Source: Eledone cirrhosa (lineage: Eukaryota). From it: a stretch of DNA of 64,000 nt. Shown in pieces: positions 1 to 64,000 of this stretch (positions are counted from its first letter, which is position 1; every line of letters begins with the position of its first letter). The DNA is taken from assembly GCA_964016885.1 (NCBI GenBank), contig OZ024744.1, positions 106,702,001-106,766,000 on the forward strand, written 5' to 3'. The position numbers were made by a program, and so were the translations under genes. The notes beneath the pieces are model-generated. The model made no database searches and was not told the DNA's origin. It saw only the letters and a list, made by a program, of their open reading frames with translations.

Positions 1-3000
1 GTTGATCATGTTGGTGTGTTGAATACCTTGGCCTTCCTTGATCCCTTGTTGTCTCTAGGGTTGTTCTTGTTGGTGTGGTGAATACCTTGGCCTTCATTGA
101 TCCCTAGTTATCTGTAGGGTTGTTCTTGTTGGTGTGGTGTATACCTTGGCCTTCCTTGATCCCTAGTTATCTGTAGAGTTGTTCATGTTGGTCTGGTGAA
201 TACCTTGACCCTCATTGATCCCTAGTTTTCTGTAGGGTTGTTCATGTTGGTGTGGTGAATACCTTGGCCTTCATTGATCCCTAGTTATCTGTACGGTTCT
301 TCATGTTGGTGTGGTGCATACCTTGGCCCTCATTGATCCCTAGTTAACTGTAGGGTTCTGCATGTTTGTGTGGTGAATACCTTGGCCATCCTTGATCCCT
401 AGTTATCGGTTGGGTTATTCATGTTGGTGTGGTGAATACCTTGGCCTTCCTTGATCCCTAGTTATCGGTAGGGTTGTTCCTGTTGGTGTGGTGAATACCT
501 TGGCCTTCATTGATCCCTAGTTATCTGTAGTGGTATTCATGTCTGTGGTGAATACCTTGACCCTCATTGTTCCCCAGTTATCTGTAGGGTTGTTCATTTT
601 GGTGTGGTGAATACCTTCGCTTTCCTTGATCCCTAGTTATCTTTAGGGTTGTTCTTGTTGGTGTGGTGTATACCTTGGCCTTCCTTGATCCCTAGTTATC
701 TGTAGTGTTGTTCATGTTGGTGTGGTGAATACCTTGGCCTTCCTTGATCCCTAGTTATCTGTAGGGTTGTTCTTGTTGGTGTGGTGAATACCTTGGCCTT
801 CATTGATCCCTAGTTTTCTGTAGGGTTGTTCTTGTTGATGTGGTGTATACCTTGGCCTTCAGTGATCCCTAGTTATCTCTAGGGTTCTTCATGTTGGTGT
901 GGTGAATACCTTGGCCTTCATTGATCCCTAGTTATCTGTAGGGTTGTTCTTGTTGGTGTGGTGTATACCTTGGCCTTCATTGATCCCTAGTTATCTGTAG
1001 GGTTGTTCATGTTGGTGTGGTGAATACCTTGACCCTCATTGATCCCTAGTTATCTGTAGGGTTGTTCATGTTGGTGTGGTGCATACCTTGACTCTCATTG
1101 ATCCCTAGTTATCTGTAGGGTTCTTCATGTTGGTGTGGTGAATACCTTGGCCTTCCTTGATTCCTAGTTATCGGTAGGGTTATTCATGTTGGTGTGGTGA
1201 ATACCTTGGCCTTCCTTGATCCCTAGTTATCGGTAGGGTTATTCATGTTGGTGTGGTGAATACCTCTGCCTTCATTGATCCCTAGTTATCTGTAGAGGTG
1301 TTCATGTTGGTTTGGTGAATACCTTGGCCCTCATTGTTCCCCAGTTATCTGTAGGGTTGTTCATTTTGGTGTGGTGAATACCTTGGCTTTCCTTGATCCC
1401 TAGTTATCTGTAGGGTTGTTCATGTTGGTGTGTTGAATACCTCGGCCTTCCTTGATCCCTAGTTATCTTTAGGGTTGTTCTTGTTGGTGTGGTGTATACC
1501 TTGGCCTTCCTTGTTCCCTAGTTATCTGTAGGGTTGTTCATGTTGGTGTGTTGAATACCTTGGCCTTCCTTGATTCCTAGATATCTGTAGGGTTGTTCCT
1601 CTTGGTGTGGTGAATACCTTGGCCCTCATTGTTCCCCATTATCTGTAGGGTTGTTCTTGTTGGTGTGGTGAACACCTTGGCCTTCCTTGATCCCTAGTTA
1701 TCTTTAGGGTTGTTCTTGTTGGTGTGGTGTATACCTTGGCCTTCCTTGATCCCTAGTTATCTCTAGGGTTGTTCTTGTTGGTGTGGTGAATACCTTGGCG
1801 TTCCTTGATCCTCAGTTATCTGTAGGTTTGTTCTTGTTGGTGTGGTGAATACCTTGGCCTTCCTTGATCCCTAGATATCTGTAGGGTTGTTCCTCTTGGT
1901 GTGGTGAATACCTTGGCCCTCATTGTTCCCCAGTTATCTGTAGGGTTGTTAATTTTGGTGTGGTGATTACCTTCGCTTTCCTTGATACCTAGTTATCTGT
2001 AGGGTTGTTCATGTTGGTGTGTTGAATACCTTGGCCTTCCTTGATCGTTAGTTATCTTTAGGGTTGTTCTTGTTGGTGTGGTGCATACCTTGACTCTCAT
2101 TGATCCCTAGTTATCTGTAGGGTTCTTCATGTTGGTGTGGTGAATACCTTGGCCTTCCTTGATTCCTAGTTATCTGTAGGGTTATTCATGTTGGTGTGGT
2201 GAATACCTTGGCCTTCCTTGATCCCTAGTTATCGGTAGGGTTATTCATGTTGGTGTGGTGAATACCTCTGCCTTCATTGATCCCTAGTTATCTGTACAGG
2301 TGTTCATGTTGGTTTGGTGAATACCTTGGCCCTCATTGTTCCCCAGTTATCTGTAGGGTTGTTCATTTTGGTGTGGTGAATACCTTGGCTTTCCTTGATC
2401 CCTAGTTATCTGTAGGGTTGTTCATGTTGGTGTGTTGAATACCTTGGCCTTCCTTGATCCCTAGTTATCTTTAGGGTTGTTCTTGTTGATGTGGTGTATA
2501 CCTTGGCCTTCCTTGTTCCCTAGTTATCTGTAGGGTTGTTCATGTTGGTGTGTTGAATACCTTGGCCTTCCTTGATCCCTAGTTATCTCTAGGGTTGTCC
2601 TTGTTGGTATGGTGAATACCTTGGCCTTCATTGATCCCTAGTTATCTGTAGGGTTGTTCTCGTTGGTGTGGTGAGTACCTTGGTCGTCATTGATCCCTAG
2701 TTATCTGTAGGGTTGTTTATGTTGGTGTGGTGAATACCTTGGCCTTCGTTGATCCCTAGTTATCTGTAGGGTTGTTCATGTTGGTCTGGTGAATACCTTG
2801 ACCCTCATTGATCCCTAGTTTTCTGTAGGGTTGTTCATGTTGGTGTGGTGAATACCTTGGCCTTCATTGATCCTAGTTATCTGTATGGGTGTTCATGTCG
2901 GTGTGGTGAATACCTTGGCCTTCCTTGATCCCTAGTTATCAGTAGGGTTATTCTTGTTGGTGTGGTGAATACCTTGGCCTTCATTGATCCCTACATATCT

Positions 3001-3660
3001 GTAGTATTGTTCATGTTGGTGTGGTTAATACCTTGGCCTTCATTGATCCCTACATATCTGTTGTATTGTTCATGTTGGCGTGGTGAATACCTTGGCCCTC
3101 ATTGATCCTTAGTTATCTGTAGGGTTGTACCTGTTGGTGTCGTGAATACCTTGGCCTTCATTGATCCCTAGTTATCTGTAGGGTTGTTCATGTTGGTGCG
3201 GTGAATACCTTGGCCTTCCTTGATCCCTAGTTATCTGTAGGGTTGTTCATGTTGGTGTGGTGAATACCTTGACTCTCTTTGATCCCTAGTTATCTGTAAG
3301 GTTGTTCATGTTGGTGTGGTGAATACCTTGGCCTTCATTGATCCCTAGTTATCTGCAGGGCTGTTCATGTTGGTGTGGTGAATACCTTGGCCCTCATTGA
3401 TCCCTAATTATCTGTAAGGTTGTTCATGTTGGTGTGGTGAAAACCTTGGCTTTCCTTGATCCCCAGATATCAGTAGTGTTGTTCTTGTTGGCGTGGTGAA
3501 TACCTTGTCCTTCCTTGATCCCTAGTTATCTGTAGGGTTTTTCTTGTTGGTGTGGTGAATACCTTGGCCCTCATTGATCCCTAGTTATCTGTAGGGTTGT
3601 TCATGTTGTTGTGGTGAATACCTTGGCCTTTATTGATCTCTAGTCATCTGTAGGGTTGTT
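1..3660. repeat. 59-bp tandem satellite, about 62 monomers visible, truncated by the window start
   Basis: Consensus GTTGTTCATGTTGGTGTGGTGAATACCTTGGCCTTCCTTGATCCCTAGTTATCTGTAGG (59 nt) repeats head-to-tail; the register shifts 1 nt per 60-nt line. Periodicity stops after ...TAGGGTTGTT at 3660. Confidence 0.98.
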
Positions 3661-3999
3661 GTAGTTCCCTAATTACTGAATTCCCATCTATTTCTATTGA
3701 GTTTGTGCTTGTCATTCTGCCTTTCTTCAATGTTACTATACAGCATTTTCCAGTCCAAATTCAATCCCCACATAATCGCTGAACACCTTAATTGTCTTCA
3801 ACAATCCTTCCAATTTGTTGTCATTTTTGGCATACAGCTTCCAGTCATCAATTAAAACAGATAATTTATTGTTTTACTGGCTATTTTGTAGCCATATTTT
3901 CTTTTGTTGAGTGTTAAAGACAACTGTGTGAGTGCAATGTAAAATATTGGAGGAGAAAACAAATCCCCCTAAAAAATATCACAGTTAATATTTATTATT
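3602..3999 (-). pseudogene. Decayed reverse transcriptase fragment of a non-LTR retrotransposon, R4/Dong-like (RLE-type)
   Basis: Manual minus-strand translation with two frameshifts: INCDIF*GDLFSPPIFYIALTQLSLTLNKRKYGYKIASKTINYLF / IDDWKLYAKNDNKLEGLLKTIKVFSDYVGIEFGLE / CCIVTLKKGRMTSTNSIEIDGNSVIRELQQPYR*LEINKGQGIHHNNM. Matches in order and spacing the motifs GIFQGDSLSP (*GD at 3971-3963), HLFYMDDLKLY (DD at 3849-3844), FSxDIGMEFGLDKC (about 3780-3743) and YKYLG, which are typical of R4/Dong-clade RTs. Clade call is from recalled motifs. Confidence 0.88.
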
Positions 4000-4470
4000 G
4001 GGGAGCCTCTCGGTGTTGACAAAAATCAATGAGACACTGTTTTCCAGAGGACTTCCGGTTCAGGGCCCATGGATAACTTCCAGAAATCCCTGACCTAGCA
4101 GTGCTACCTTGGAGCTTTGCCAGTTTGAGATAAACTCTACAGGCATGCAAATGCCATCAGTCTGAGGTGCACACAGGATAATGAAATCATCCTGCATGTA
4201 CTCTTCTAGTGTCCGAGTATTGCTGAATTGTATGTTTATGTGGAGCACCTGTTGTCACGTGTAGGACAGATCCAACTGTCAACTGGCAGTTTTTATCTGC
4301 CTTGTGGCCATGGCAAAAGTGGTGTGTGGTGGACGCATTTGAAAGGGTTGAAGACAACTACTTTCCTGTTCAGCGAAACACTGATTAACTTTTTCAGATT
4401 TCACTTGAAGAGGAAAATCAGGGTGGAGAGGGAAGAGCTGCCTTCCAACCAGTTTGTTGTAAGGTGGGTG
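4000..4470 (+). pseudogene. 5'-truncated, decayed C-terminus of an L1/Tx1-like LINE ORF2 (zf-RVT / CCHC knuckle region)
   Basis: One plus frame from 4000 reads GEPLGVDKNQ*DTVFQRTSGSGPMDNFQKSLT*QCYLGALPV*DKLYRHANAISLRCTQDNEIILHVLF*CPSIAELYVYVEHLLSRVGQIQLST...VWWTHLKGLKTTTFLFSETLINFFRFHLKRKIRVEREELPSNQFVVRWV. A neighbouring frame supplies AVFICLVAMAK. The pattern W..xxGALPV...C...ExxxHxxFxC...AKxxxW...ER...F..RW is the L1/Tx1 ORF2 end. Stops at 4096, 4126 and 4207 are one substitution from W, R and Q; the first knuckle Cys appears to be deleted. Confidence 0.8.
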
Positions 4471-7228
4471 AGAGGGAAGTGTTGCCTTCTAACCAGTTTG
4501 TTGTAAGAAGAGTGAGAGCGAAGTGCTGCCTTCCAACCAGTTTGTTGTAAAGTGGGTGAGAGGGAAGTGCTGCCTTCCAACCAGTTTGTTGTAAAGTGGG
4601 TGAGAGGGAAGTGCTGCCTTCCAACCAGTTTGTTGTAAAGTGGGTGAGAGGGAAGTGCTGCATTCCAACCAGTTTGTTGTAAGGTGGGTGAGAGGGAAGT
4701 GTTGCCTTCCGACCTGTTTGTTATAAGGTGGGCGAGAGGGAAGTGCTGCTTTCCAACCTGTTTGTTTAAGGTGGGTGAGAAGGAAGTGCTGCCTTCCAAC
4801 CAGTTTATTGTAAAGTGGGTGAGAGGGAAGTGCTGCCTTCCAACCAGTTTGTTGTAAAGTGGGTGAGAGGGAAGAGCTGCCTTCCAACCAGTTTGTTGTA
4901 AGGTGGGTGAGAGGGAAGTGCTGCCTTCCAACTAGTTTGTTGTAAGTTGGGTGAGAGGGAAGTGCTGTCTTTCAACCAGTTTATTGTAAGGTGGGTGAGA
5001 GGGAAGTGCTGCCTTCCAACCAGTTTGTTGTAAGGTGGGTGAGAGGGAAGTGCTGCCTTCCAACCAGTTTGTTGTAAAGTGGGTGAGAGGGAAGTGCTGC
5101 CTTCTAACCAGTTTATTGTAAGAAGAGTGAGAGCGAAGTGCTGCCTTCCAACCAGTTTATTGTAAGGTGGGTGAGAGGGAAGTGCTGCCTTCTAACCAGT
5201 TTGTTGTAAGAAGAGTGCGAGCGAAGTGCTGCCTTCCAACCAGTTTGTTGTAAACTGGGTGAGAGGGAAGTGCTGCCTTCCAACACGTTTGTTGTAAAGT
5301 GGGTGAGAGGGAAGTGCTGCCTTCCAACCAGTTTGTTGTAAAGTGGGTGAGAGGGAAGTGCTGCATTCCAACCAGTTTGTTGTAAGGTGGGTGAGAGGGA
5401 AGTGTTGCCTTCTAACCAGTTTGTTGTAAGAAGAGTGAGAGCGAAGTGCTGCCTTCCAACCAGTTTGTTGTAAAGTGGGTGAGAGGGAAGTGCTGCCTTC
5501 CAACCAGTTTGTTGTAAAGTGGGTGAGAGGGAAGTGCTGCCTTCCAACCAGTTTGTTGTAAAGTGGGTGAGAGGGAAGTGCTGCATTCCAACCAGTTTGT
5601 TGTAAGGTGGGTGAGAGGGAAGTGTTGCCTTCCGACCTGTTTGTTATAAGGTGGGCGAGAGGGAAGTGCTGCTTTCCAACCTGTTTGTTTAAGGTGGGTG
5701 AGAAGGAAGTGCTGCCTTCCAACCAGTTTATTGTAAAGTGGGTGAGAGGGAAGTGCTGCCTTCCAACCAGTTTGTTGTAAAGTGGGTGAGAGGGAAGAGC
5801 TGCCTTCCAACCAGTTTGTTGTAAGGTGGGTGAGAGGGAAGTGCTGCCTTCCAACTAGTTTGTTGTAAGTTGGGTGAGAGGGAAGTGCTGTCTTTCAACC
5901 AGTTTATTGTAAGGTGGGTGAGAGGGAAGTGCTGCCTTCCAACCAGTTTGTTGTAAGGTGGGTGAGAGGGAAGTGCTGCCTTCCAACCAGTTTGTTGTAA
6001 AGTGGGTGAGAGGGAAGTGCTGCCTTCTAACCAGTTTATTGTAAGAAGAGTGAGAGCGAAGTGCTGCCTTCCAACCAGTTTATTGTAAGGTGGGTGAGAG
6101 GGAAGTGCTGCCTTCTAACCAGTTTGTTGTAAGAAGAGTGCGAGCGAAGTGCTGCCTTCCAACCAGTTTGTTGTAAACTGGGTGAGAGGGAAGTGCTGCC
6201 TTCCAACACGTTTGTTGTAAAGTGGGTGAGAGGGAAGTGCTGCCTTCCAACCAGTTTGTTGTAAAGTGGGTGAGAGGGAAGTGCTGCATTCCAACCAGTT
6301 TGTTGTAAGGTGGGTGAGAGGGAAGTGTTGCCTTCCGACCTGTTTGTTATAAGGTGGGCGAGAGGGAAGTGCTGCTTTCCAACCTGTTTGTTTAAGGTGG
6401 GTGAGAAGGAAGTGCTGCCTTCTAACCAGTTTATTGTAAAGTGGGTGAGAGGGAAGTGCTGCCTTCCAACCAGTTTGTTGTAAAGTGGGTGAGAGGGAAG
6501 AGCTGCCTTCCAACCAGTTTGTTGTAAGGTGGGTGAGAGGGAAGTGCTGCCTTCCAACTAGTTTGTTGTAAGTTGGGTGAGAGGGAAGTGCTGCCTTTCA
6601 ACCAGTTTATTGTAAGGTGGGTGAGAGGGAAGTGCTGCCTTCCAACCAGTTTGTTGTAAGGTGGGTGAGAGGGAAGTGCTGCCTTCTAACCAGTTTGTTG
6701 TAAGGTGGGTGAGAGGGAAGTGCTGCCTTCCAACAAGTTTGTTGTAAGTTGGGTGAGAGGGAAGTGCTGCCTTTCAACCAGTTTATTGTAAGGTGGGTGA
6801 GAGGGAAGTGCTGCCTTCCAACCTGTTTGTTGTAAGCTGGGTGAGAAGGAATGCTGCCTTCCAGCCAGTTTGTTGTAAGATGGGTGAGAAGGAAGTGCTG
6901 CCTTCCAACCAGTTTGTTGTAAAGTGGGTGAGAGGGAAGTGCTGGCTTCCGACCAGTTTGTTGTAAAGTGGGTGAGAGGGAAGTGCTGACTTCCAACCAG
7001 CTTGTTGTAAAGTGGGTGAGAGGGAAGTTCTGCCTTCCAACCAGTTTGTTGTAATATGGGTGAGAGGGAAGTGCTGCATTCCAACCAGTTTGTTGTAAGG
7101 TGGGTGAGAGGGAAGTGCTGCAGTCCAACCTGTTTGTTGTAAGGTGGGTGAGAGGGAAGTGCTGCCTTCCGGCCTGTTTGTTATAAAGTGGGTGAGAGGG
7201 AAGTGCTGCCTTCCAACCAGTTTGTTGT
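4426..7228. repeat. 44-bp tandem satellite, left arm (about 64 monomers)
   Basis: Consensus GAGAGGGAAGTGCTGCCTTCCAACCAGTTTGTTGTAAGGTGGGT; the first two GAGAGGGAAG occurrences are at 4426 and 4470 (period 44). Confidence 0.98.
7225..7228 (+). other. 4-bp target-site duplication TTGT, left copy (right copy 12748-12751)
   Basis: CCAGTTTG[TTGT]-TGTAGTAAG...GCTAAA-[TTGT]AAAGTGGGTGAG. Removing the element and one TTGT restores a normal monomer. Confidence 0.9.
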
Positions 7229-7463
7229 TGTAGTAAGACGCCTCACGCTCCTTGATAGAACAACGCCGGTTGAGAACGCCAGAAAGAAAAGACAGACAGC
7301 CACTGGAAAGCCGACTGATCACACGCAAGAAATCAGCCTCTGTACAACACCATTGTTTGTGCTACAACAAAAAATAAACGTATATTTCATCTCTAATTTC
7401 TGCTGTTGAAATAATTATTATGTCACTCGTATCTCGATAACATCTATAACTAATGCTGCTAAA
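7229..7463 (+). repeat. 5' LTR (235 bp)
   Basis: TGTAGTAAGACG...TGCTGCTAAA; direct repeat of 12513-12747 with 7 mismatches by manual count and no net length difference; AATAAA at 7373-7378. Confidence 0.96.
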
Positions 7464-7464
7464 G

Positions 7465-7477
7465 TGGTGACCGACGT
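7465..7477 (+). promoter_or_regulatory. Primer-binding site, tRNA-Trp-like
   Basis: TGGTGACCGACGT lies 1 nt after the LTR. The canonical tRNA-Trp PBS is TGGTGACCCCGACGT, so this copy lacks two C. Confidence 0.8.
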
Positions 7478-8352
7478 AAGAATTTAACGCAGCCCTTCTT
7501 ATACATTCAGTTGAACTTTTATTACCACGTTGCCGGCCTTTTTTCGCAACTTGCAAAAATAAAAAATATTCCTTTTAAAATTATCGAAAAATTAGTAGTA
7601 TTTCAAAAACTTTTTGCTACACTCGACAACAACAACGACAGCAGCAGCAGCGACAACATTGTTTAACCACTGACCAAAAGAGGGAATAGTGAGTGGCAGC
7701 TTCATAGCCTTACCGACGCAAACCACCACACATCGGAAATATCAAAACGATTCATTCGTGTCGATAATTTAGAGCAACTTTTTTTTATTCACTTGAATAT
7801 TTCATTTCCGTTGCCAACTTTTTCGCAACTTACAGAAGAAAAAAGAAAAAAGTGTATTTTTCCAAGGTGGCGTTGCGTTCCTTCCCAGTTTTGTAACGGA
7901 CACATTTTTTGAATTGCGTGTGTGTTCCATGACTGGTCAAGAGAGAAGAGACTAAACTTTTTTTTGTGAACATAACTGCCCCGCATGGGGATATACATGC
8001 CTTACCTTTTTCTAAGGGATTTTTAGCCACTGGCTACCTTTGTTGATATCCAACGCAGATATATTTAAAAAAAACAAAAAAACATTTTTTTTCCTCCTTT
8101 CTTTTTTTTTACCTTATTTGATTTGGCTGGTTCGTTGAAGCAACGCGAGGGGACAGACGTTGAAGGAAAATTTTTTTTTAAAAGATATATATCTGTATTT
8201 TATGTATTTTTCATATTTCCTTATGTTTTGAATGTCTGTTTCTTTTTGCCCTTTAACTTTTTCTCAATATTGGCTGTTCTCTTTTCACTGTACAAGGGTA
8301 CACTAATTGCTGTTTAGATATATATGTATATATTTTTTTTATAAAAGTTGAC

Positions 8353-9133
8353 ATGAATGTGCCACATTTGCCCGCCTTTACTGGAAAACCTAAGATGTGG
8401 TTTGCCCAGTTACAGACGTATTTTACGGTCTGTAAGACCGAATCTGACCAGCGCCTCGCTGTACTGATTAGCGGCCTTCCCCCTAATCTAGCAGATTCGG
8501 TCCAAGACCTAATTACAGACCCCCCCCCCCTCTGACTTGACGTATGAGTTTTTGAAGGGCGAGATTTTGAGGAGGAATTGTAAGTCGGTAGAGAGTCGTT
8601 TTCGGTCATTGATCGAGGACGAACTATTAGGTGACAGGACCCCTACCGCTTTTCTCCGGGATTTGCGGGATTTGAGCGATTCCCAAGATCAGGATAGCCC
8701 TTTCCTGAAGCAATTGTTCTTCTCTCGCCTACCTCAAGAGGTACAGGCGATCCTAACCCATATTCTAGAGGTGAATACCCTGGATCACATTGCTGTCTCT
8801 GCTGACAAAATTGTAGAGGTGACGAAGAGGGACACTTCGAAGCCAAAGTACGTTGCTTCCTCTTCTCTTCCTCAATCACGCTCATCAGCGTCTGATGGCA
8901 ATTTAATCACCACAATGGAAGCCATGACTCGTCAAATGGCGGAGTTGTGCAAGGAATTCAGGTCCTTTGGACGGCAGAGGAGCCGCTCACGACGTTATTC
9001 AACTTCTCGCCACCGTAGCCCTTCCAACACACCAAGAACACCATATTGTTATTACCATGAAAGATATGGTAAAAAAGCCGCCCGTTGTAGGCCTCCTTGT
9101 GCTTACGAGGGAAAAGACGACCAGAGTCACTAA
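8353..9133 (+). pseudogene. gag: gag, interrupted by a +1 frameshift in a C11 run at 8520-8530
   Basis: ORF 8353-8535 (PHLPAF...MWFAQLQTYF) joins ORF 8537-9133 (YEFLKGEIL...LGDRTPTAFLR...FFSRLP...CYYHERYGKKAARCRPPC) if one C is removed, giving DPPPSDLTYEFLK. Confidence 0.92.
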
Positions 9134-9468
9134 CGGCGGATAGTGCGCTCTGCGAAACATCTAACCGCCACTTTTTCATTGAGGACCTGCTGTCAGGTAG
9201 AGCTTTTCTGGTTGACACAGGTGCAGCTTGTTCCGTATGGCCTGTGTGTTGTATGAAGGAGACTCCCCCTGAGACGCCTATTGAGTTGCAGGCAGTAAAT
9301 TGTTCGCCGATTCGAACTTTAGGACAAATCTCGTTACCCTTGCAGTTTCGTAATCTGCGGCGCGAGTTTAAATGGATATTTGCTGTCGCTGCCTTGCCGT
9401 ATCCGATTCTAGGCGCGGATTTTCTCCACCATTTTTCATTGACGGTGGACCTTCGTGGTAACGCCTAA
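9097..9468 (+). pseudogene. pol: Aspartic protease portion of pol, separated from RT by a 1-nt deletion near 9460
   Basis: FLVDTGAACSVWP and PILGADFL motifs. GGT AA CGC CTA ATT GAT would read GKRLID with one more A and continue in the RT frame. Confidence 0.9.
9109..9169 (+). promoter_or_regulatory. Programmed -1 ribosomal frameshift signal (slippery heptamer plus predicted H-type pseudoknot)
   Basis: G_GGA_AAA at 9109-9115 in the gag frame; 6-nt spacer; stem 1 9122-9132/9141-9152; loop GGCGG 9135-9139 complementary to CCGCC 9165-9169; the protease ORF is in the -1 frame. Confidence 0.85.
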
Positions 9469-12400
9469 TTGATGGCATCACGGGATTAACTGTTGTTGGC
9501 AAGGCGGCAGGAGTTCCAACGGTTAGCCCGACATTTTTTCTTGCTAACACCGGTGATCCTTTCCATGCGTTGTTGAACTCGTTCCCGCAACTGACTCGGG
9601 GAAATTTTCGATTTGATGAACCAACTCATACCACGGAGCACTTCATATCTACAACTGGTGCTCCCGTTTTCTCTCGTCCTCGTCGCTTGCCTCCGGACAA
9701 ACTCAAAGCAGCACGATCAGAGTTTGATCATATGCTGCAAATGGGGATTATTCGTCCGTCCACGAGCCCGTGGGCGTCCCCATTACACATGGTACCGAAA
9801 GCGAATGGCGCTTGGAGACCTACTGGAGATTATCGACGCCTGAATTCGATAACAGTACCGGACCGTTATCCTATCCCTCATCTGCAAGACTTTGCGTCTT
9901 CGTTGCAGGGATGCAAGATATTCTCCAAACTGGATTTAATTCGTGCGTACCATCAAATTCCTGTCCATAAAAATGACATTCCAAAAACGGCTATAGTTAC
10001 ACCATTTGGGTCTTTCGAGTTTTTGACTATGCCATTCGGATTAAGGAATGCCGCTAGTACTTTTCAGCGGTTTATGGATGAGGTTACTCGCGGCCTCGAT
10101 TTCGTCTATACCTATATTGACGATCTGCTCATTGCTAGTTCTTCTCCAGAGCAGCATACGCACCATTTGAATCTTCTTTTCCGCCGATTGAAGGCGTATA
10201 ACGTGCAGCTTAATGCACCCAAATGTGTTTTTGGCGCTGAGTCACTGACTTTCTTGGGTCACGTCATCGATGCTGACGGTATTCGACCCCGGCCTGAGCG
10301 AGTTAAGGTCATAGAGGATTTGCCTCCACCGACCTCACTACGTCAGTTACGCCAGTTCTTAGGTCTGGTTAACCTTTATAGGCGTTTCGTGCCAAATTGT
10401 GCAAAATTGCTTTTCTCCCTGACAGAAATTTTGAAAAATTGTCGGAGGAAGAACAAAGATATTTCTTTGACAGACACTCAACTTACTGATTTTCAGCACG
10501 CCAAAACCGTTTTGGCTAATGCTTCGTTACTGACTCTCCCGGTACCCGGTGCAAAGCTAACGCTTTGTGTTGATGCATCGGATATCGCTGTGGGCGCAGT
10601 ACTACAGCAAAACATCAATGGTTACCAGCAACCGCTGGAGTTTTTTTCCCAAAAGCTAAATCCTGCTGAGACGCGCTACAGCACCTTTGGAAGAGAGCTT
10701 TTAGCCATCTATTTGGCCGTGAAACATTTTTCACATGTGCTAGAGGGTAGACAATTTACTATCCTCACTGACCATAAACCATTGACTTTTGCTTTGAGAG
10801 CGAAGGCTGATAAATACTCGCCCAGAGAGACGAGACACCTTGATTTAATCTCGCAATATACGAGTGATATCCAGCACATTCCGGGTTCACTAAATACAGC
10901 GGCCGATGCTTTGTCCCGCTTACCCGTGACAGCGATCTCGTCATCCTCTGACATAGATCTGACTCGTTTGGCTGCGGATCAGCCTTCCCTTGAGTCATTG
11001 GATGTCACATCGCCCGAGTTTGCGAATTGCGAGATGAAATACTTGCCTCTGTCGACTGCAGTTGGCCAAATTCTCTGCGACGTCTCTTTGGACGTGCCTA
11101 GGCCCTTCGTTCCAGAGAATCATCGTCGGACCGTGTTTCTGGGATTACATTGTATCTCGCATCCAGGATCTTCTGCCACAGCAAAGCTCATATCAGCTAG
11201 ATTTTTCTGGCCAAATATGAGGCGTGAAATTGCTGCTTGGTGCCGTTCCTGCGTCGCTTGCCAGAGATCAAAGGTCCATCGACACGTCAAGGCTCCCCTG
11301 GGTACCTTTGCTAACCCAGATGCGCGTTTTTCACATATTCATATTGACATAGTGGGACCTTGGCCTGTCAGCGATGGTTTTTCTTATCTACTTACCGTCA
11401 TTGACCGTTTTTCGAGATGGCCTGAGGCCATCCCCTTGAAAAACATCACCGCGGAGACAACAGCACATGCTCTTGTGTCTGGATGGATCTCTCGTTATGG
11501 AGTTCCATCCACAATAACTACCGACCGTGGACGACAGTTCGAGTCGAGCCTTTTCCTCGAGCTGTCAAAATTAATTGGTGCTAAACGCATTAGAACTACC
11601 GCATACCATCCCGCTTCGAATGGTATGGTGGAGCGTTTTCACCGCCAACTGAAGGCCTCCTTAATGGCCTCAATGGACTCGGCGCATTGGAGCGAGTACC
11701 TCCCTATTGTGCTACTAGGGATTCGGTCAACGGTGAAGGTCGACTTTGGATTTTCACCGGCCGAAGTACTGTACGGTGCCCCTCTGACGTTGCCCGGGCA
11801 AATGCTTGCCCCTATCGATCTTGATGCCCAAGATCACGCTTCCTACGTGTCCCGTTTGCGCTCCTATTTCCAGGATTTGCCGCCAATGGACACTAGGAAA
11901 CAAACTGTCAAGACTGCTGTCCCGAGGGATATTGCCTCGTGGACGCATGTTTTTGTAAGGAATGATACGGTGAAGCCCCCGCTCACACAACCTTACACTG
12001 GACCTTACCGTGTCTTAGCGCGCTCGGCTAAGCATTTCACGTTAGATATTAAGGGGTCCAGGGAGACAGTTACATTAGACAGGCTTAAGCAGGCGCACCT
12101 TGACACGGACGCTGTGGTTCCTGATCCACGAACCCCTTCGTATTTGCCTGTTGAGCGAACGACTGTTCCTGAACCACCATCATCGCCTGTCCCTGCACCA
12201 CCACCATCGCCACGTTACAAGACCACGACCCATTCAGGTCGTAGGGTCCACTGGCCCAAAACATTTTGCAGCACCGTCTATATTGAGACTATGTTAGCTG
12301 CACCTTCTTTTTGCCTCTGTGTTTCTGCTTTTTCTTTGCCTTGTTTTTTTATGCATGCATGTCGTTTTTTTAAAAGCATTTTTCAAATCCTTATTCTGGA

Positions 12401-12470
12401 TTCAATTTTTGCTAGAGCGGATAGCTCCCCCTTGTTGCATTGTTCGCCATCTTACTCAACATGTGAGTAA
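9462..12470 (+). CDS. pol: pol: reverse transcriptase, RNase H and integrase (stop-free frame)
   Basis: RT: [39 protein letters not shown] at 10113-10124. RNase H: VDASD, RELLA, TDHKPL, ADALSR. Integrase: HCISHPG...[31 protein letters not shown] module, and the terminal SGRRVHWP motif. Confidence 0.96.
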
Positions 12471-12512
12471 TGACATCGATTTTCGATAATTTGAAAATCT
12501 GGCTCGAGGTAC

Positions 12513-12747
12513 TGTAGTAAGACGCCTCACGCTCCTTGATAGAACAACGCCGGTTGAGAACACCAGAAAGAAAAGACAGACAGCCACTGGAAAGCCGACT
12601 GATCACACGGCAGAAACCAGCCTCTGTACAACACCATTGTTTGTGCTACATCAAAAAATAAACGTATATTTCATCTCTAATTTCTGCTGTTGAAATAATT
12701 ATTATGTCACTCGTATCTCGATAACATTTATAACTAATACTGCTAAA
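12513..12747 (+). repeat. 3' LTR (235 bp)
   Basis: TGTAGTAAGACG...TACTGCTAAA, about 97% identical to the 5' LTR; AATAAA at 12657-12662. Confidence 0.96.
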
Positions 12748-15700
12748 TTGTAAAGTGGGTGAGAGGGAAGAGCTGCCTTCCAACCAGGTTCTTGTAAGGT
12801 GAGTGAGAGGGAAGTTCTGCCTTCCAACCAGTTTGTTGTAAGATGGGTGAGAGGGAAGTGCTGCCTTCCAACCTGTTTGTTGTAAAGTGGGTGAGAGGGA
12901 AGTGCTGCCTTCCAACCAGTTTGTTGTAAGGTGGGTGAGAGGCAAGTGCTGCCTTCCAACCAGTTTGTTGTAAGACGGGTGAGAGGGAAGTCCTGCCTTC
13001 CAACCTGTTTGTTGTAAAGTGGCTGAGAGGGAAGTGCTACCTTCCAACCTGTTTGATGTAAATGGGTGGTTGAGAGGGAAGTGCTGACTTCCAACCAGTT
13101 TGTTGTAAGGTGGGTGAGAGGGAAGTGCTGCCTTCCAACCAGTTTGTTGTGAAGTGGGTGAGAGGGAAGTCCTGCCTTCCAACCTGTTTGTTGGAAGGTG
13201 GGTGAGAGGTAAGTGCTGCCTTCTAACCAGTTTGTTATAAGGTGGGTGAGAGGAAAGTGCTGCCTTCCAACAAGTTTTTTGTAAAGTGGGTGAGAGGGAA
13301 GTGCTGCCTTCCAACCAGTTTGTTGTAAGATGGGTGAGAGGGAAGTGCTGTATTCCAAACTGTTTGTTGTAAAGTGGGTGAGAGGGAAGTGCTGCCTTCT
13401 AACCAGTTTGTTGTAAAGTGGGTGAGAGGGAAGAGATGCCTTCTAACCAGTTTCTTGTAAGGTGGGTGAGAGAGAAGTGCTGCCTTCCAACCAGTTTGTT
13501 GTGAAGTGGGTGAGAGGGAAGTCCTGCCTTCCAACCTGTTTGTTGTAAGGTGGGTGAGAGAGAAGTGCTACCTTCCAACCAGTTCGTTGTAAAGTGGGTG
13601 AGAGGGAAGTGCTGCATTCCAACCAGTTTGTTGTAAGGTGGGTGAGAGGGAAGTGCTGCCTTCCAACCAGTTTGTTGTAAGGTGCATGAGAGAGAAGTGC
13701 TCCCTTCCAACCAGTTTGTTGTAAGGTGGGTGAGAGGGAAGTGCTCCCTTCCAACCTGTTTGTTGTAAGGTGGGTGAGAGGGAAGTGCTCCCTTCCAACC
13801 TGTTTGTTGTAAGGTGGGTGAGAGGGAAGTGCTGCCTTCCAACCAGTTTTTGTAAAGTGGGTGAGAGGGAATGGCTCCCTTCCAACCAGTTTGTTGTAAA
13901 GTGGGTGAGAGGGAAGTGCTGCCTTCTAACCAGTTTGTTGTAAGTTGGGTGAGAGGGAATGCTGCCTTCCAACCAGTTTGTTGTAAGCTGGGTGAGAGGG
14001 CAGTGCTGCCTTCCAACCAATTTGTTGTAAGAAGGGTGAGAGGGAAGTGCTGCCTTCTAACCAGTTTGTTGTAAAGTGGGTGAGAGGGAAGTGGTGACTT
14101 CCAAACAGTATGTTGTAAAGTGGGTGAGAGGGAAGTGCTGGCTTTCAACCAGTTTGTTGTAAAGTGGGTGAGAGGGAAGTGCTGCCTTCCAACCTGTTTG
14201 TTGTAAGGTGGGTGAGAGGGAAGTGCTGCCTTCTAACCAGTTTGTTGTAAAGTGGGTGAGAGGGAAGTGCTGACTTTCAACCAGTTTATTGTAAAGTCGG
14301 TAAGAGGGAAGTGCTGCCTTCCAACTAGTTTGTTGTAAGGTGGGTAAGAGGGAAGTCCTGCCTTCTAACCAGTTTGTTGTAAAGTGGGTGAGAGGGAAGT
14401 GCTGCCTTCCAACCAGTTTGTTGTAAAGTGGGTGAGAGGAAAGAGCTGCCTTCCAACGAGTTTGTTGTAAGGTGAATGAGAGGGAAGTTCTGCCTTCCAA
14501 CCAGTTTGTTGTAAGATGGGTGAGAGGGAAGTGCTGCCTTCCAACCTGTTTCTTGTAAGGTGGGTGAGAGGGAAGTGCTGCCTTCCAACCAGTTTATTGT
14601 AAGGTGGGTGAGAGCGAAGTGCTGCCTTCCAACCAGTTTGTTGTAAGATGGGTGAGAGGGAAGTCCTGCCTTCCAACCTGTTTGTTGTAAAATAGCTAAG
14701 CGGGAAGTGCTGCCTTCCAACCTGTTTGTTGTAAAATGGGTGGGTGAGAGGGAAGTGCTGATTCCAACCAGTTTGTTGTAAAGTGGTTGAGAGGGAAGTG
14801 CTGACTTCCAACCATTTTGTTGTAAGGTGGGTGAGAGGGAAGTGCTGCCTTCTAACCAGTTTGTTGTGAAGTGGGTGAGAGGGAAGTCCTGCCTTCCAAC
14901 CTGTTTGTTGGAAGGTGGGTGAGAGGTAAGTGCTACCTTCTAACCAGTTTGTTATAAGGTGGGTGAGAGGAAAGTGCTGCCTTCCAACAAGTTTTTTGTA
15001 AAGTGGGTGAGAGGGAAGTGCTGCCTTCCAACCAGTTTGTTGTAAAGTGGGTGAGAGGGAAGTGCTGCCTTCTAACCAGTTTGTTGTAAAGTGGGTGAGA
15101 GGGAAGAGATGCCTTCCAACCAGTTTCTTGTAAGGTGGGTGAGAGAGAAGTGCTGCCTTCCAACCAGTTTGTTGTGAAGTGGGTGAGAGGGAAGTCCTGC
15201 CTTCCAACCTGTTTGTTGTAAGGTGGGTGAGAGAGAAGTGCTACCTACCAACCAGTTCGTTGTAAAGTGGGTGAGAGGGAAGTGCTGCATTCCAACCAGT
15301 TTGTTGTAAGGTGGGTGAGAGGGAAGTGCTGCCTTCCAACCAGTTTGTTGTAAGGTGCATGAGAGAGAAGTGCTCCCTTCCAACCAGTTTGTTGTAAGGT
15401 GGGTGAGAGGGAAGTGCTCCCTTCCAACCTGTTTCTTGTAAGGTGGGTGAGAGGGAATGGCTCCCTTCCAACCAGTTTGTTGTAAAGTGGGTGAGAGGGA
15501 AGTGCTGCCTTCTAACCAGTTTGTTGTAAGGTGGGTGAGAGGGAAGTGCTGCCTTCCAACCAGTTTGTTGTAAGTTGGGTGAGAGGGAATGCTGCCTTCC
15601 AACCAGTTTGTTGTAAGCTGGGTGAGAGGGCAGTGCTGCCTTCCAACCAATTTGTTGTAAGAAGGGTGAGAGGGAAGTGCTGCCTTCTAACCAGTTTGTT

Positions 15701-18700
15701 GTAAAGTGGGTGAGAGGGAAGTGGTGACTTCCAAACAGTATGTTGTAAAGTGGGTGAGAGGGAAGTGCTGGCTTTCAACCAGTTTGTTGTAAAGTGGGTG
15801 AGAGGGAAGTGCTGCCTTCCAACCTGTTTGTTGTAAGGTGGGTGAGAGGGAAGTGCTGCCTTCTAACCAGTTTGTTGTAAAGTGGGTGAGAGGGAAGTGC
15901 TGACTTTCAACCAGTTTATTGTAAAGTCGGTAAGAGGGAAGTGCTGCCTTCTAACCAGTTTGTTGTAAGGTGGGTGAGAGGGAAGTCCTGCCTTCTAACC
16001 AGATTGTTGTAAAGTGGGTGAGAGGGAAGTGCTGCCTTTAAACCTCTTTGTGGTAAGGTGGGTGAGAGGGAAGTGCTGCCTTCCAACCAGTTTGTTGTAA
16101 AGTGGGTGAGAGGAAAGAGCTGCCTTCCAACGAGTTTGTTGTAAGGTGAATGAGAGGGAAGTTCTGCCTTCCAACCAGTTTGTTGTAAGATGGGTGAGAG
16201 GGAAGTGCTGCCTTCCAACCTGTTTCTTGTAAGGTGGGTGAGAGGGAAGTGCTGCCTTCCAACCAGTTTATTGTAAGGTGGGTGAGAGCGAAGTGCTGCC
16301 TTCCAACCAGTTTGTTGTAAGATGGGTGAGAGGGAAGTCCTGCCTTCCAACCTGTTTGTTGTAAAATAGCTAAGCGGGAAGTGCTGCCTTCCAACCTGTT
16401 TGTTGTAAAATGGGTGGGTGAGAGGGAAGTGCTGACTTCCAACCAGTTTGTTGTAAAGTGGGTGAGAGTGAAGTTCTGCCTTCCAACCTGTTTGTTGTAA
16501 GGTGGGTGAGAGGGAAGTGCTGCCTTCCAACCTGTTTGTTGTAAGGTGGGTGAAAGGGAAGCGCTGCCTTCTAACCAGTTTGTTGTAAGGTGGGTGAGAG
16601 GGAAGTGCTGCAGTCCAACCAGTTTGTTGTAACGTGGGTGAGAGGGAAGTGCTGCATTCTAACCAGTTTGTTGTAAGGTGGGTTTGAGGGAAGTGCTGCA
16701 TTCCAACCAGTTTGTTGTAAGGTGGGTGAGAGAGAAGTGCTGCCTTCCAACCTGTTTGTTTTAAGGTGGGTGAGTGGGAAGTCCTGCCTTCCAAGCTGTT
16801 TGTTGTAAAGTGGCTGAGAGGGAAGTGCTGCCTTCCAACCTGTTTGTTCTAAAATGGGTGGGTGAGAGGGAAGTGCTGAGTTCCAACCAGTTTGTTGTAA
16901 GATGGGTGAGAGGGAAGTGCTGCCTTCCAACCTGTTTGTTGTAAGGTGGGTGAGAAGGAAGTGCTGCCTTCCAACCTGTTTGTTGTAAGGTGGGTGAGAG
17001 GGAAGTGCTGCCTTCCAACCAATTTGTTGTAAGAAGGGTGAGAGGGAAGTGCTGCCTTCCAACCAGTTTCTTGTAAAGAGGGTGAGAGGGAAGTGCTGCC
17101 TTCCAACCAGTTTGTTGTAAAGTGGCTTAGAGGGAAGAGCTGCCTTCCAACCAGTTTCTTGTAAGGTGAGTGAGAGGGAAGTGCTGCCTTCCAACCAGTT
17201 TGTCGTGAAGTGGGTGAGAGGAAAGTCCTGCCTTCCAACCTGTTTGTTGTAAGGTGGCTGAGAGAGAAGTACTACCTTCCAACCAGTTCGTTGTGAAGTG
17301 GGTGAGAGGGAAGTGCTGCATTCCAACCAGTTTGTTGTAACGTGGGTGAGAGGGAAGTGCTGCCTTCCAACCGGTTTGTTGTAAGGTGCGTGAGAGAGAA
17401 GTGCTCCCTTCCAACCAGTTTGTTGTAAGGTGGGTGAGAGGGAAGTGCTCTCTTCCAACCTGTTTGTTGTAAGTGGGTGAGAGGTAAGTGCTGCCTTCTA
17501 ACTAGTTTGTTATAAGGTGGGTGAGAGGGAAGTGCTGCCTTCCAAACAGTTTCTTGTAAAGTGGGCGAGAGGGAAGTGCTGCCTTCCAACCAGTTTGTTG
17601 TAAGGTGGGTGAGAGGGAAGTGCTGCCTTCCAACCAATTTGTTGTAAAGTGGGTGAGAGAAAAGTTCTGCCTTCTAAACAATATGTTGTAAAGTGGGTTA
17701 GAGGGAAGTGCTGGCTTCCAACCAGTTTGTTGTAAAGTGGGTGAGAGGGAAGTGCTGCCTTCCAACCTGTTTTTTGTAAGGTGGGTGAGAGGGAAGTGCT
17801 GCCTTCTAACCAGTTTGTTGTAAAGTGGGTGAGAGGGATGTGCTGACTTTCAACCAGTTTAATGAAAAGTGGGTTCGAGGGAAGTGCTGCCTTCTAACCA
17901 GTTTGTTGTAAGGTGGGTGAGAGGGAAGTCCTGCCTTCTAACCTGTTTATTGTAAAGGGTGTGAGAGGGAAGTGCTGCCTTCCAACCTGTTTGTTGTAAG
18001 ATGGGTGAGAGGGATGTGCTGCCTTCAAACCTGTTTGTTGTAAAGTGGGTGAGAGGGAAGTGCTGCCTTCCAACCAGTTTGTTGTAAGATGGGTGAGAGG
18101 GAAGTTCTGCCTTCCAACCTGTTTGTTGTAAAGTGGCTAAGCGGGAAGTGCTGCCTTCCATCCTGTTTGTTGTAAAATGGGTGGGTGAGAGGGAAGTGCT
18201 GACTTCCAACCAGGTTGTTGTAAGGTGGGTGAGAGTGAAGTGCTGCCTTCCAACCTGTTTGTTGTAAGGTGGGTGAGAGAGAAGTGCTGCCTTCCAACCT
18301 GTTTGTTGTAAGGTGGGTGAGAGGGAAGTGCTGCCTTCTAACCAGTTTGTTGTAAGAAGAGTGAGAGGGAAGTGCTGCCTTCCAACCACTTTGTTGTAAA
18401 GTGGGTGAGAGGGAAGTGCGGCTTTCCAACCAGTTTGTTGTAAGGTGGGTGAGAGAAAGTGCTGACTTCCAACCGGTTTGTTGTAAAGTGGGTGAGACGG
18501 AAAAAGCTGCCTTCTAACCAGTTTGTTATAAGCTGGGTGAGAGGGAAATGCTGCCTTCCAACCTGTTTGTTGTAAGGTGGGTGACAGGGAAGTGCTGCCT
18601 TCCAACCAGTTTGTTTTTAAATGGGTGGGTGAGAGGGAAGTGCTTCCTTCCAATCTGTTTGTTGTAAAGTGGGTGAGTGGGAACTGCTGCCTTCCAACCA

Positions 18701-21700: not shown

Positions 21701-22789
21701 AACCAGTTTGTTGTAAGGTGGGTGAGAGGGAAGTGCTGCCTTCCAACCTGTTTGTTGTAAGTTGGGTGAGAGGGAAGTGCTGCCTTCCAACCAGTTTGTT
21801 GTAAAGTGGTTGAGAGAAAAGTTCTGCCTTCTTACCAATTTGTTGTAAAGTGGGTGAGAGGGAAGTGCGTCCTTCCAACCAGTTTGTTGTAAGGTGGGTG
21901 AGAGAGAAGTTCTTCCTTCCAACCAGTTTGTTGTAAAGTGGGTGAGAGAAAAGTGCTGCATTCCAACCATTTTGTTGTAAAATGGGTGAGAGGGAAGTGC
22001 TGCATTCCAACCAGTTTGTCGTAAGGTGGGTGAGAGGGAAGTGCTGTCTTCCAACCAGTTTGTTGTAAGCTGGGTGAGAGGGAAGTGCTGCCTTCCAACC
22101 TTTTTGTTGTAAGTTGGGTGAGAGGGAAGTGCTGCCTTCCAACCTCTTTGTTGTAAGGTGGGTGAGAGGGAAGTGCTGCCTTCTAACCAGTTTGTTGTGA
22201 AATGAGTGAGAGGGCAGTGCTGCTTTCCTACCAGTTTGTTGTAAGCTGGGTGAGAGGGAAGTGCTGCCTTCCAACCAGTTTGTTGTAAGGTGGGTGAGAG
22301 GGAAGGGCTGCCTTCCAATCTGTTTATTGTAAGGTGGGTGAGAGGGAATTGCTGCCTTCTAACCAATTTGTTGTAAGATGGGTGAGAGGGAAGTGCTGCC
22401 TTTCAAACAGTTTGTTGTAAGGTGAATGAGAGGGAATTTCAGCCTTCCAACCAGTCTGTTGTAAGATTGGTGAGAGGGAATTGCTGCCTTCCAACCTGTT
22501 TGTTTTAAAATGGGTGGGTGAGAGGGAAGTGCTGACTTCCAACCAGTTTGTTGTAAGTTGGGTGAGAGGTAAGTACTGTTTTCAACCTGTTTGTTGTGAG
22601 GTGGGTGAGAGGGAAGTGCTGCCTTCCAACCAGATTCTTGTAAGGTGGGTGAGAGAGAAGTGCTGCCTTCCAACCTGTTTGTTGTGAAGTGGGTGAGAGG
22701 GAAGTCCTGCCTTCCAACCTGTTTGTTGTAAGGTGGGTGAGAACGAAGTGCTACCTTCCAACCAGTTTGTTGTAAAGTGGGTTAGAGGG

Positions 22790-40200: not shown

Positions 40201-40654
40201 TTTTGTAAGCTGGGTGAGAGGGAAGTGCTGCCTTCCAACCAGTTTGTTGTAAGGTGGGTGAGATGGAAGGGCTGCCTTCCAATCTGTTTATTGTAAAGTG
40301 GCTGAGAGGGAAGTGCTGCCTTCCCACCTGTTTGTTGTAAAATGGGTGGGTGAGAGGGAAGTGCTGACTTCCAACCAGTTTGTTGTAAGTTGGGTGAGAG
40401 GGAAGTGCTTCCTTCCAACCTGTTTGTTGTAAGGTGGCTGAGAGGGAAGTGCTGCCTTCCAACCAGTTTCTTGTAAGGTGTGTGAGAGAGAAGTGATGCA
40501 TTCCAACCAGTTTGTTGTGAAGTGGGTGAGAGGGAAGTCCTGCCTTCCAACCTGTTTGTTGTAAGGTGGGTGAGAGAGAAGTGCTACCTTCCAACCTGTT
40601 TGTTGTAAGGTGGGTGAGAGGGAAGTGCTGCCTTCCAACCTGTTTGTTGTAAGG

Positions 40655-63300: not shown

Positions 63301-64000
63301 TAAAGTGGGTGAGAGGGAAGTGCTGCCTTCCAAACAGTTCGTTGTAAGGTGGGTGAGAGGTAATTGCTGCTTTCCAACCAGTTTGTTGTAAAGTGGTTGC
63401 GAGGGAAGCGCTGCATTCCAACCAGTTTGTTGTAAGGTGGGTGAGAGGGAAGTGCTGCCTTCCAACCTGTTTGTTTAAAATGGGTGAGAGGGAATTGCTG
63501 CCTTCCAACCAGTTTGTTGTAAGGTGAGTGAGAGGGAAGTGCTGCCTTCCAACCTGTTTGTTGTAAAGTGAGTGAGAGGGAATTGCTGCCTTCCAACCAG
63601 TTTGATGTAACGTGGGTGAGAGGTAAGTGCTGCCTTCCAACCTGTTTGTTGTAAGGTGGGAAGAGGGAAGTGCTGCCTTCCAACCTGTTTGTTGTAAAGT
63701 GAGTGAGAGGGAACAGCTGCTTTCCAACCAGTTTGTTGTAAGGTGAGTGAGAGGGAATTTCTGCCTTCCAACCAGTTTGTTGTAAGATGGGTGAGAGGGA
63801 AGTCCTGCCTTCCAACCAATTTGTTGTGAATTGGGTGGGTGAGAAGCAAGTGCTGCCTAACAACCATTTTGTTATAAGGTGGGTGACAGGGAAGTGCTGC
63901 CTTCCAACCTCTTTGATTTAAGTTGGGTGAGAGGGAAGTGCTGCCTTCCAACCTGTTTGTTGTAAAGTGGGTGAGAGGGAAGAGCTGCCTTCCAACCTGT

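What the first reader, a model, noticed from the sequence alone, without database searches (positions are those of the whole stretch)
4380..4520. The >50-kb 44-bp satellite is the amplified last codons of an L1/Tx1-like ORF2
Seen: FHLKRKIRV runs in frame into EREELPSNQFVVRWV, and the array starts exactly there. Unique AGGGTG-GAGAG resembles the monomer junction GGGT-GAGAG, a plausible microhomology for the first duplication. In the consensus monomer this frame is stop-free, whereas the other plus-strand phases meet TAA or TGA. Established: Tx1/L1 ORF2 proteins often end with ER...F..RW. Inference: a single 44-nt coding segment expanded more than 1000-fold.
Basis: partly seen in the sequence, partly recalled or inferred. 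Interest (0 to 1): 0.82.

Follow-up and report, generated by a model that had tools for sequence, protein, structure and literature searches.

The report
Giant satellite grown inside one LINE
A 44-letter piece of a dead jumping gene's protein-coding region has been repeated about 1,900 times in place, pushing the two halves of that gene copy 89,000 letters apart; it is an unusually clean case of a known way that repetitive DNA is born, and it likely has no job.

Summary
Confirmed. The 44-bp unit is a single-copy segment of an L1/Tx1-group LINE ORF2: 27 of 29 dispersed copies align through the whole first unit, one (L018) equals the array's majority monomer, none is tandem. The array (1,894 units, 89.2 kb with a 5.5-kb Ty3/Gypsy insertion) ends 29.6 kb beyond the window, where the same LINE resumes in register: 16 codons, stop, 3' UTR, AATAAA, (ATT)n. 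All 313 genome-wide exact junction 27-mers lie in this one array. The junction sits in a 5-nt GAGAG repeat (background 0.9%). Corrections: the unit lies 16 codons before the stop; only one of the other two plus phases has stops; the array is interrupted. Likely route: microhomology-seeded duplication soon after insertion, then multi-kb block duplications; no sign of function. The neighbouring 59-bp array (47 kb) grew likewise inside another LINE, and about half of sampled contig C28 DNA is long arrays of mostly unrelated units (12% elsewhere). TE-derived minisatellites are well known, and this scan already noted several LINE- or SINE-born arrays elsewhere in this genome. New member of a known kind.

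The parts
1..3660 (-). 59-bp tandem array (47 kb in all, starts at G000:C28:106658655), grown inside the RT-coding region of a different LINE relic; neighbour and parallel case
   Evidence: TRF; flanks lie 66-96 bp apart in 10 of 14 related loci and 47,021 bp apart here; translation
3661..3995 (-). RT relic of the second LINE family (R4/Dong-like; label recalled), upstream part of the element that hosts the 59-bp array
   Evidence: 81-97% identity to 14 loci
3992..3999 (+). short ATT-type remnant at the 5' junction of the host LINE, likely target-site remains; no clear TSD
   Evidence: (ATT)n at the 5' junction of 4 of 4 full-length copies
3998..4430 (+). host LINE, 5'-truncated, ORF2 3' part (zf-RVT region to KRKIRVER), dead: stops, frame breaks, about 60 nt missing near 4285
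   Evidence: (477 window bases over 537 columns)
4426..4430 (+). 5-nt exact microhomology GAGAG (second copy 4470-4474), inside a gapped 9-of-10 match
   Evidence: short-read contigs give the same joint with 5 letters fitting both sides
4431..4474 (+). first 44-bp unit = the single-copy LINE segment (14 codons + 2 nt)
4431..7228 (+). proximal array, 64 units, with young 21-unit (923-bp) block duplications
   Evidence: block 4431 vs 5354: 0.5% different
7229..12747 (+). Ty3/Gypsy-type LTR element inserted in the array; 235-bp LTRs at 7229-7463 and 12513-12747 (7 of 235 differ); 4-bp TSD TTGT at 7225-7228 and 12748-12751; gag/protease part interrupted
   Evidence: (RVT_1, RT_RNaseH, Integrase_H2C2, rve)
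12748..64000 (+). main array; continues beyond the window to extended coordinate 93646 (G000:C28:106795646), where the host LINE resumes: 16 codons, TAG, 3' UTR, AATAAA, (ATT)n

Best explanation
The array is one internal 44-bp segment of a dead, 5'-truncated L1/Tx1-group LINE copy repeated about 1,900 times between the two halves of that same copy; it likely began with a duplication between two GAGAG microhomologies and likely grew by repeated unequal exchange of multi-kb blocks, with no function. Shown: LINE origin, in-register flanks at both ends, single locus, the 5-nt microhomology, nested block duplications of many sizes, a later LTR insertion. Inferred: that the first duplication was slippage or microhomology-mediated repair soon after the LINE inserted (the majority monomer is still the unmutated LINE unit, and monomer divergence, 7.0%, is about half the 10.5-14.5% between the host flanks and their nearest sampled relatives); that growth went by unequal crossing-over, gene conversion or break-induced replication and went on until recently; that the size reflects a permissive, array-rich chromosome region and not a property of this LINE.
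For: 27 of 29 dispersed loci align through the unit and 27 of 29 match the distal flank; L002 aligns to extended coordinates 3998-4474 and again 93594-93951. Majority monomer differs by 0, 1 and 2 nt from the units of L018, L004 and L006. No 44-bp tandem in L002-L030. 313 of 313 exact junction 27-mers and 692 of 694 17-mers lie in this array; one of the other two is unrelated low-complexity DNA. Exact microhomology of 5 nt or more in 18 of 29 LINE units; background in a full-length copy 0.86% at offset 44. Joint 'goes back 44, both = 5' in contigs of runs X1-X3. Nearest-neighbour 10-unit blocks differ by 0.2-8.0% (10th-90th percentile), median lag 90 units; no regular higher-order period over the array. 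Same anatomy in the adjacent 59-bp array, with 7, 24, at least 27 and about 800 units at related loci. 52% of sampled C28 DNA is in long arrays.
Against: A 5-nt repeat is common: a 6-kb copy holds 692 exact repeats of 5 nt or more at offsets 20-100, so microhomology explains the junction but not why this site grew. The exact repeat is missing in 11 of 29 units, including L018 and L004, the units closest to the monomer, and the host's distal flank no longer shows it exactly. The dating is rough: only 40 of 4,850 candidates were scored, so closer relatives of the host may exist, and arrays may mutate at another rate. X1-X3 are one sample and may be the assembly's source; X4 showed no such joint. 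Copy number was not measured in reads; the youngest near-identical blocks could be assembly errors. One reverse-strand 17-mer match was not listed and not inspected. The recombination pathway cannot be read from one haplotype.
Confidence: 0.85

Rival explanations
1. The first tandem copies were made during retrotransposition itself, by slippage or template jumping of the LINE reverse transcriptase at GAGAG, and recombination only enlarged an array that arrived with the insertion.
For: The majority monomer equals an unmutated LINE unit and the array seems about as old as the host copy. L006 and L017 hold two 3' ends close together.
Against: 0 of 29 other loci has the 44-bp unit in tandem and no second array was found genome-wide by exact junction words. 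The data fit this seed step about as well as post-insertion slippage; it changes only step one.
Confidence: 0.2
2. The bulk of the array came from rolling-circle amplification of an excised circle that re-entered the locus by homology.
For: Single locus and head-to-tail orientation throughout.
Against: Rolling circles should leave long runs of one period; instead block sizes vary (about 18 to over 400 units) and block ages are spread from 0 to about 10% difference.
Confidence: 0.1
3. The array has been kept or enlarged by selection, as centromeric or heterochromatin-organising DNA or as a repeat-protein template on the minus strand.
For: Chicken centromeric satellites from CR1 LINEs are listed in a review table (PMC6947457). 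The majority monomer is stop-free on the minus strand, with open stretches up to 844 codons.
Against: Single locus, 12.3% pairwise divergence, no regular higher-order repeat; surrounded by many unrelated arrays; tolerates an LTR insertion; flanking ORFs that could be recognised look like TE relics (by eye). Mean minus-strand open length is only 106 codons.
Confidence: 0.07
4. The array merely abuts a LINE fragment, or is an assembly artefact.
For: No read-level test of the full length was possible.
Against: Both flanks rejoin in register; 1,011 distinct units among 1,894; the tandem joint is in short-read contigs; an LTR element with a TSD sits inside.
Confidence: 0.02

Closest known systems
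TE-derived minisatellites by the Haber-Louis route (Alu, B1, LTR minisatellites; passages of PMC6947457, and PMC3389668; the primary papers were not read)
   Same: A unit bounded by 5-10 bp direct repeats inside a transposable element is duplicated, then amplified by slippage, conversion or unequal crossing-over; single locus; element parts on both sides.
   Different: Those arrays are described as up to about 100 units; this one has about 1,900 units over 89 kb and comes from ORF2 coding sequence.
SINE-derived satellites (sSat) of squamate reptiles (PMC10702118; abstract, outline and passages)
   Same: Tandem arrays from part of a retroposon, locus-specific variants, incomplete homogenisation, likely subtelomeric; loci up to about 950 units.
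   Different: They come from SINEs and recur at many loci from the same segment; here a LINE ORF2 segment, one locus only, about twice the longest unit count quoted.
Satellites with LINE ORF2 or 3' similarity: Phodopus PROsat, chicken HinfI (CR1), seal Pvc20, common cetacean satellite (passages and table of PMC9659126)
   Same: LINE sequence, in some cases ORF2, turned into tandem DNA.
   Different: In the passages read these are similarities between a satellite family and a LINE; the parent copy with both flanks still attached in register is not described there.
Microsatellite-targeting Tx1-clade LINEs Kibi, Koshi and crocodilian Tx1 (passages of PMC4494074), for the host element
   Same: APE + RT + zf-RVT ORF2, simple repeats at both ends of full-length copies.
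   Different: Here the repeat is (ATT)n, not (TC)n, (TTC)n or (TTCC)n; clade placement not tested by a tree.

Membership tests
L1/Tx1-group non-LTR retrotransposon (host family) | ORF2 with N-terminal APE endonuclease, RT and C-terminal zinc-binding domain | tested here: met
   PF03372, PF00078, PF13966 in three consecutive frames of L057; the window's own 98-aa frame gave no Pfam hit
L1/Tx1-group non-LTR retrotransposon (host family) | about 6-kb two-ORF element, no LTRs, poly(A) signal and simple-repeat tail, 5'-truncated copies | tested here: met
   L056-L059 share about 6 kb; tails
L1/Tx1-group non-LTR retrotransposon (host family) | RT closer to L1 ORF2p than to R2-type RTs | tested here: met
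   P0001 (80% identical to the L057 C-terminal frame): L1 ORF2p E 1e-49 to 3e-50, R2 E 4e-24 or weaker
Tx1 clade in the strict sense | RT tree placement with named Tx1 references | not tested
   no labelled Tx1 sequence came back among 120 listed homologues; no tree built
Tx1 clade in the strict sense | target preference for a microsatellite | tested here: inconclusive
   (ATT)n at the 5' junction of 4 of 4 full-length copies, but at only a minority of 26 alignment starts of other copies, many of which are not true junctions; ATT is also the tail
TE-derived minisatellite (Haber-Louis type) | unit is a single-copy part of the dispersed element | tested here: met
TE-derived minisatellite (Haber-Louis type) | unit bounded by a 5-10 bp direct repeat | tested here: met
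   5 nt exact or more in 18 of 29 units, background 0.86%; at the lower edge of the range
TE-derived minisatellite (Haber-Louis type) | both parts of the element flank the array in register | tested here: met
TE-derived minisatellite (Haber-Louis type) | length polymorphism among individuals (VNTR) | not testable with these tools
   only short-read contigs were offered
Classical satellite family (multi-locus, homogenised, often centromeric) | present at several loci or chromosomes | tested here: not met
   313 of 313 and 692 of 694 exact junction words in one array; diverged arrays could be missed
Classical satellite family (multi-locus, homogenised, often centromeric) | array-wide homogenisation or regular higher-order repeat | tested here: not met
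   12.3% pairwise difference, only local block periods
Classical satellite family (multi-locus, homogenised, often centromeric) | CENP-A or heterochromatin association | not testable with these tools
   needs ChIP or FISH

The most novel reading that the evidence does not exclude
This array is one legible specimen of a chromosome-wide runaway process: on the 136-Mb contig C28 almost any stretch of DNA, LINE coding sequence included, can be seeded at a microhomology and blown up into its own single-locus array of tens of kb, so that about half the chromosome consists of unrelated giant minisatellites. That would be a mode of genome growth distinct from both transposition and satellite-family spread, with parent copies still attached so that every birth can be dated.
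Probability: 0.3. Interest if true: 0.65.

Novelty: new member of a known kind. Interest (0 to 1): 0.4.

Why it matters
The origin of most satellites is erased; here the parent element, both junctions, the unmutated ancestral unit and an internal LTR clock are all preserved across 89 kb, so the birth and growth of a long array can be followed step by step. It shows that a minisatellite-type seed can reach satellite size without spreading to other loci. The wider pattern on C28 (about half of sampled DNA in mostly unrelated long arrays) matters more than this locus: if real and not a scaffolding effect, it offers thousands of dated natural experiments on tandem-array growth.

Tried and rejected
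Empty-site search: the two C28 paralogues of the left flank (L104, L105) continue the second LINE past 3995 and do not join the distal flank, so no TSD for the host LINE could be fixed. In-situ bridging test on 17 neighbouring arrays against 616 kb of fetched DNA: bridging hits for only 1 of 17; the database is small, so TE origin of the others is neither shown nor excluded. Independent second origin of the 44-bp array: the C8 17-mer match is unrelated G-rich DNA; one reverse match was not listed. First protein search gave 1 unnamed hit; second gave no Tx1-labelled name; ESM Atlas gave zf-RVT clusters only, recognition below its threshold. Sequencing runs: no RNA holder listed; all holders had under half of the words; contigs did not span the stretch. 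Literature: 8 searches showed no listing on LINE-born giant arrays or array-dominated chromosomes in cephalopods; the library lacks most subscription papers, and no supplementary files were opened.

Full report
What is in the window. TRF gives a 59-bp array at 1-3660 and a 44-bp array in two parts, 4421-7228 and 12748-63997. Between the parts lies a 5,519-bp Ty3/Gypsy-type LTR element (Pfam RVT_1, RT_RNaseH, Integrase_H2C2, rve) with 235-bp LTRs that differ at 7 of 235 sites and a 4-bp TSD, TTGT (one other element of the family shows a 4-bp TSD, another a near match). The window is G000:C28:106702001-106766000 of a 3.0-Gb genome. The organism is not established by my calls; earlier scan notes call it a likely octopus.

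The observation. Upstream in the same frame are remains of a Cys/His zinc-binding region with several stops, so this is a dead ORF. A search of the genome with 3960-4460 scored 40 of 4,850 candidates and returned 53 matches; I took the best 30 loci, one being the window. Of the 29 others, 27 align without a break from about 3998 to 4472-4477, through the whole first unit; L012 and L022 stop earlier because of a deletion and an insertion inside the unit. They then run on into 16 more codons, a stop, a 3' UTR, AATAAA and (ATT)n (output partly cut). None has the 44-bp unit in tandem. So the unit is a single-copy LINE segment near, not at, the ORF2 end. In homologous ORF2 proteins a loose version of the motif lies a median 19 residues from the end (36 of 121, control 5%). 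The phase argument is half wrong: TAA and TGA fall in one phase and the third phase is open.

The decisive test. I fetched the next 37 kb. The array ends at extended coordinate 93,646 and the LINE resumes in register: 16 codons, TAG, 3' UTR, AATAAA, (ATT)n. L002 aligns to 3998-4474 and again to 93,594-93,951; 27 of 29 loci match this distal flank. The array therefore grew between the two halves of one 5'-truncated LINE copy, which are now 89.2 kb apart. All 313 genome-wide exact matches to a 27-nt dimer junction are in this array; of 694 matches to a 17-nt junction 692 are, one is unrelated low-complexity DNA and one was not listed. Exact words can miss diverged arrays.

The host family. Four copies share about 6 kb with two ORFs. 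ORF2 has APE, RT and zf-RVT. A close homologue matches human L1 ORF2p far better than R2. All 4 full-length copies have (ATT)n at the 5' junction as well as the tail, which resembles the microsatellite-targeting Tx1 families described in PMC4494074 (passages). No tree with named references was built, so 'L1/Tx1 group' is shown and 'Tx1 clade' is likely.

The seed. Every ordinary monomer ends with the 3' version of the flanking repeat and starts with what follows the 5' version, which places the crossover in GAGAG (4426-4430 and 4470-4474). An exact repeat of 5 nt or more is present in 18 of 29 LINE units; the background at offset 44 in a full-length copy is 0.86%. Short-read contigs of one sample (X1-X3) show the same joint, 44 back with 5 letters fitting both sides; X4 does not. 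Against over-reading: a 6-kb copy has 692 such repeats at offsets 20-100, and 11 of 29 units have lost the exact repeat, among them L018 and L004.

Growth and age. Segmentation gives 1,894 units, 1,667 of 44 nt, 1,011 distinct, on average 7.0% from the majority and 12.3% from each other. The majority equals the unit of dispersed copy L018 and differs by 1-2 nt from L004 and L006, by 7-8 from the young subfamily. The host flanks differ from their nearest sampled relatives by 14.5% (left) and about 10.5-11.4% (right, long alignments), or 5-7% per lineage. Inference: amplification began soon after insertion, before the unit picked up private fixed changes. Ten-unit blocks have nearest neighbours 0.2-8.0% different (10th-90th percentile), median lag 90 units; local periods of 21, 53, 62 and 107 units appear, none array-wide. 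That points to repeated multi-kb block duplications up to recent times. The LTR element (3.0% between LTRs) is a late arrival and is present once.

Context. The 59-bp array spans C28:106,658,655-106,705,660 and sits inside the RT region of a second LINE family (R4/Dong-like, label recalled): its flanks are 66-96 bp apart in 10 of 14 related loci, 450 and 700 bp in two, not both captured in two, and 47,021 bp apart here. Related loci carry 7, 24 and at least 27 units, two of them 94-97% identical C28 paralogues. Long arrays (unit 15 bp or more, 500 bp or longer) cover 54.8% of the 180 kb downstream (18 of 18 pieces), 52.2% of 20 pieces spread along C28 (13 of 20) and 12.3% of 20 pieces from other contigs (4 of 20, the two full ones at the ends of C1). 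Among 31 units compared only 6 pairs were related. But only 1 of 17 neighbouring arrays could be bridged to a dispersed element with the 616 kb at hand, and C28 may be a scaffold that gathers repeat-rich contigs.

Known kinds. Reviews describe minisatellites born inside TEs between 5-10 bp repeats and enlarged by slippage, conversion or unequal crossing-over (PMC6947457, passages; PMC3389668, passages), satellites similar to LINE ORF2 (PMC9659126, passages and table) and SINE-derived arrays of up to about 950 units in reptiles (PMC10702118, abstract and passages). The O. vulgaris repeat paper (PMC13282606, first third and word search) lists active L1-Tx1 and Dong-R4 families and does not discuss such arrays in its main text; its supplement was not opened. 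Eight searches gave no listing on this in cephalopods. The scan itself had noted several LINE- or SINE-born arrays elsewhere in this genome; my reading was fixed before that look-up.

Verdict. It is a new, unusually complete member of a known kind, most likely without function. Interest 0.4; the chromosome-wide pattern is the part worth following.

Noticed in passing
window 1-3995 and G000:C28:106658655-106705660; L104, L105, L116: The 59-bp array is a second in-situ expansion, inside the RT region of another LINE family; related loci hold 7, 24, at least 27 and about 800 units. Its monomers vary (A 30, T 14, C 1) at one position inside an imperfect 8-nt junction repeat.
   Followed up: partly
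G000:C28, 20 samples of 10 kb (L118-L137) and 106803001-106983000: About half of sampled C28 DNA lies in long tandem arrays with mostly unrelated units, against 12% on other contigs, where the full cases are at the ends of C1.
   Followed up: partly
window 7229-12747; L158-L167: The Ty3/Gypsy-type family has 235-bp LTRs that begin TG and end AA rather than CA in all 10 loci printed; 12 of the 40 best LTR matches are on C28.
   Followed up: no
L056-L059: Full-length copies of the host LINE family have (ATT)n on both sides, which suggests an ATT-targeting family; young copies are 94-98% identical.
   Followed up: partly
window 12748-64000 and beyond, minus strand: The majority monomer has no stop on the minus strand (44-aa period); open stretches reach 844 codons, mean 106. 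Probably incidental.
   Followed up: no
L124, L132 and arrays at C28:106864360, 106867088, 106918136: Five arrays with 48-61 bp units are related to each other and one bridges to a dispersed repeat; likely separate expansions from one SINE region (SINE label recalled).
   Followed up: no
L006 and L017: Each holds two 3' ends of the host LINE family within 1 kb, stacked at an ATT tail.
   Followed up: no
extended coordinates about 95,500-100,400 (L053-L054): A second Ty3/Gypsy-like element and an RTE-like RT relic lie just past the host LINE tail (labels by eye).
   Followed up: no
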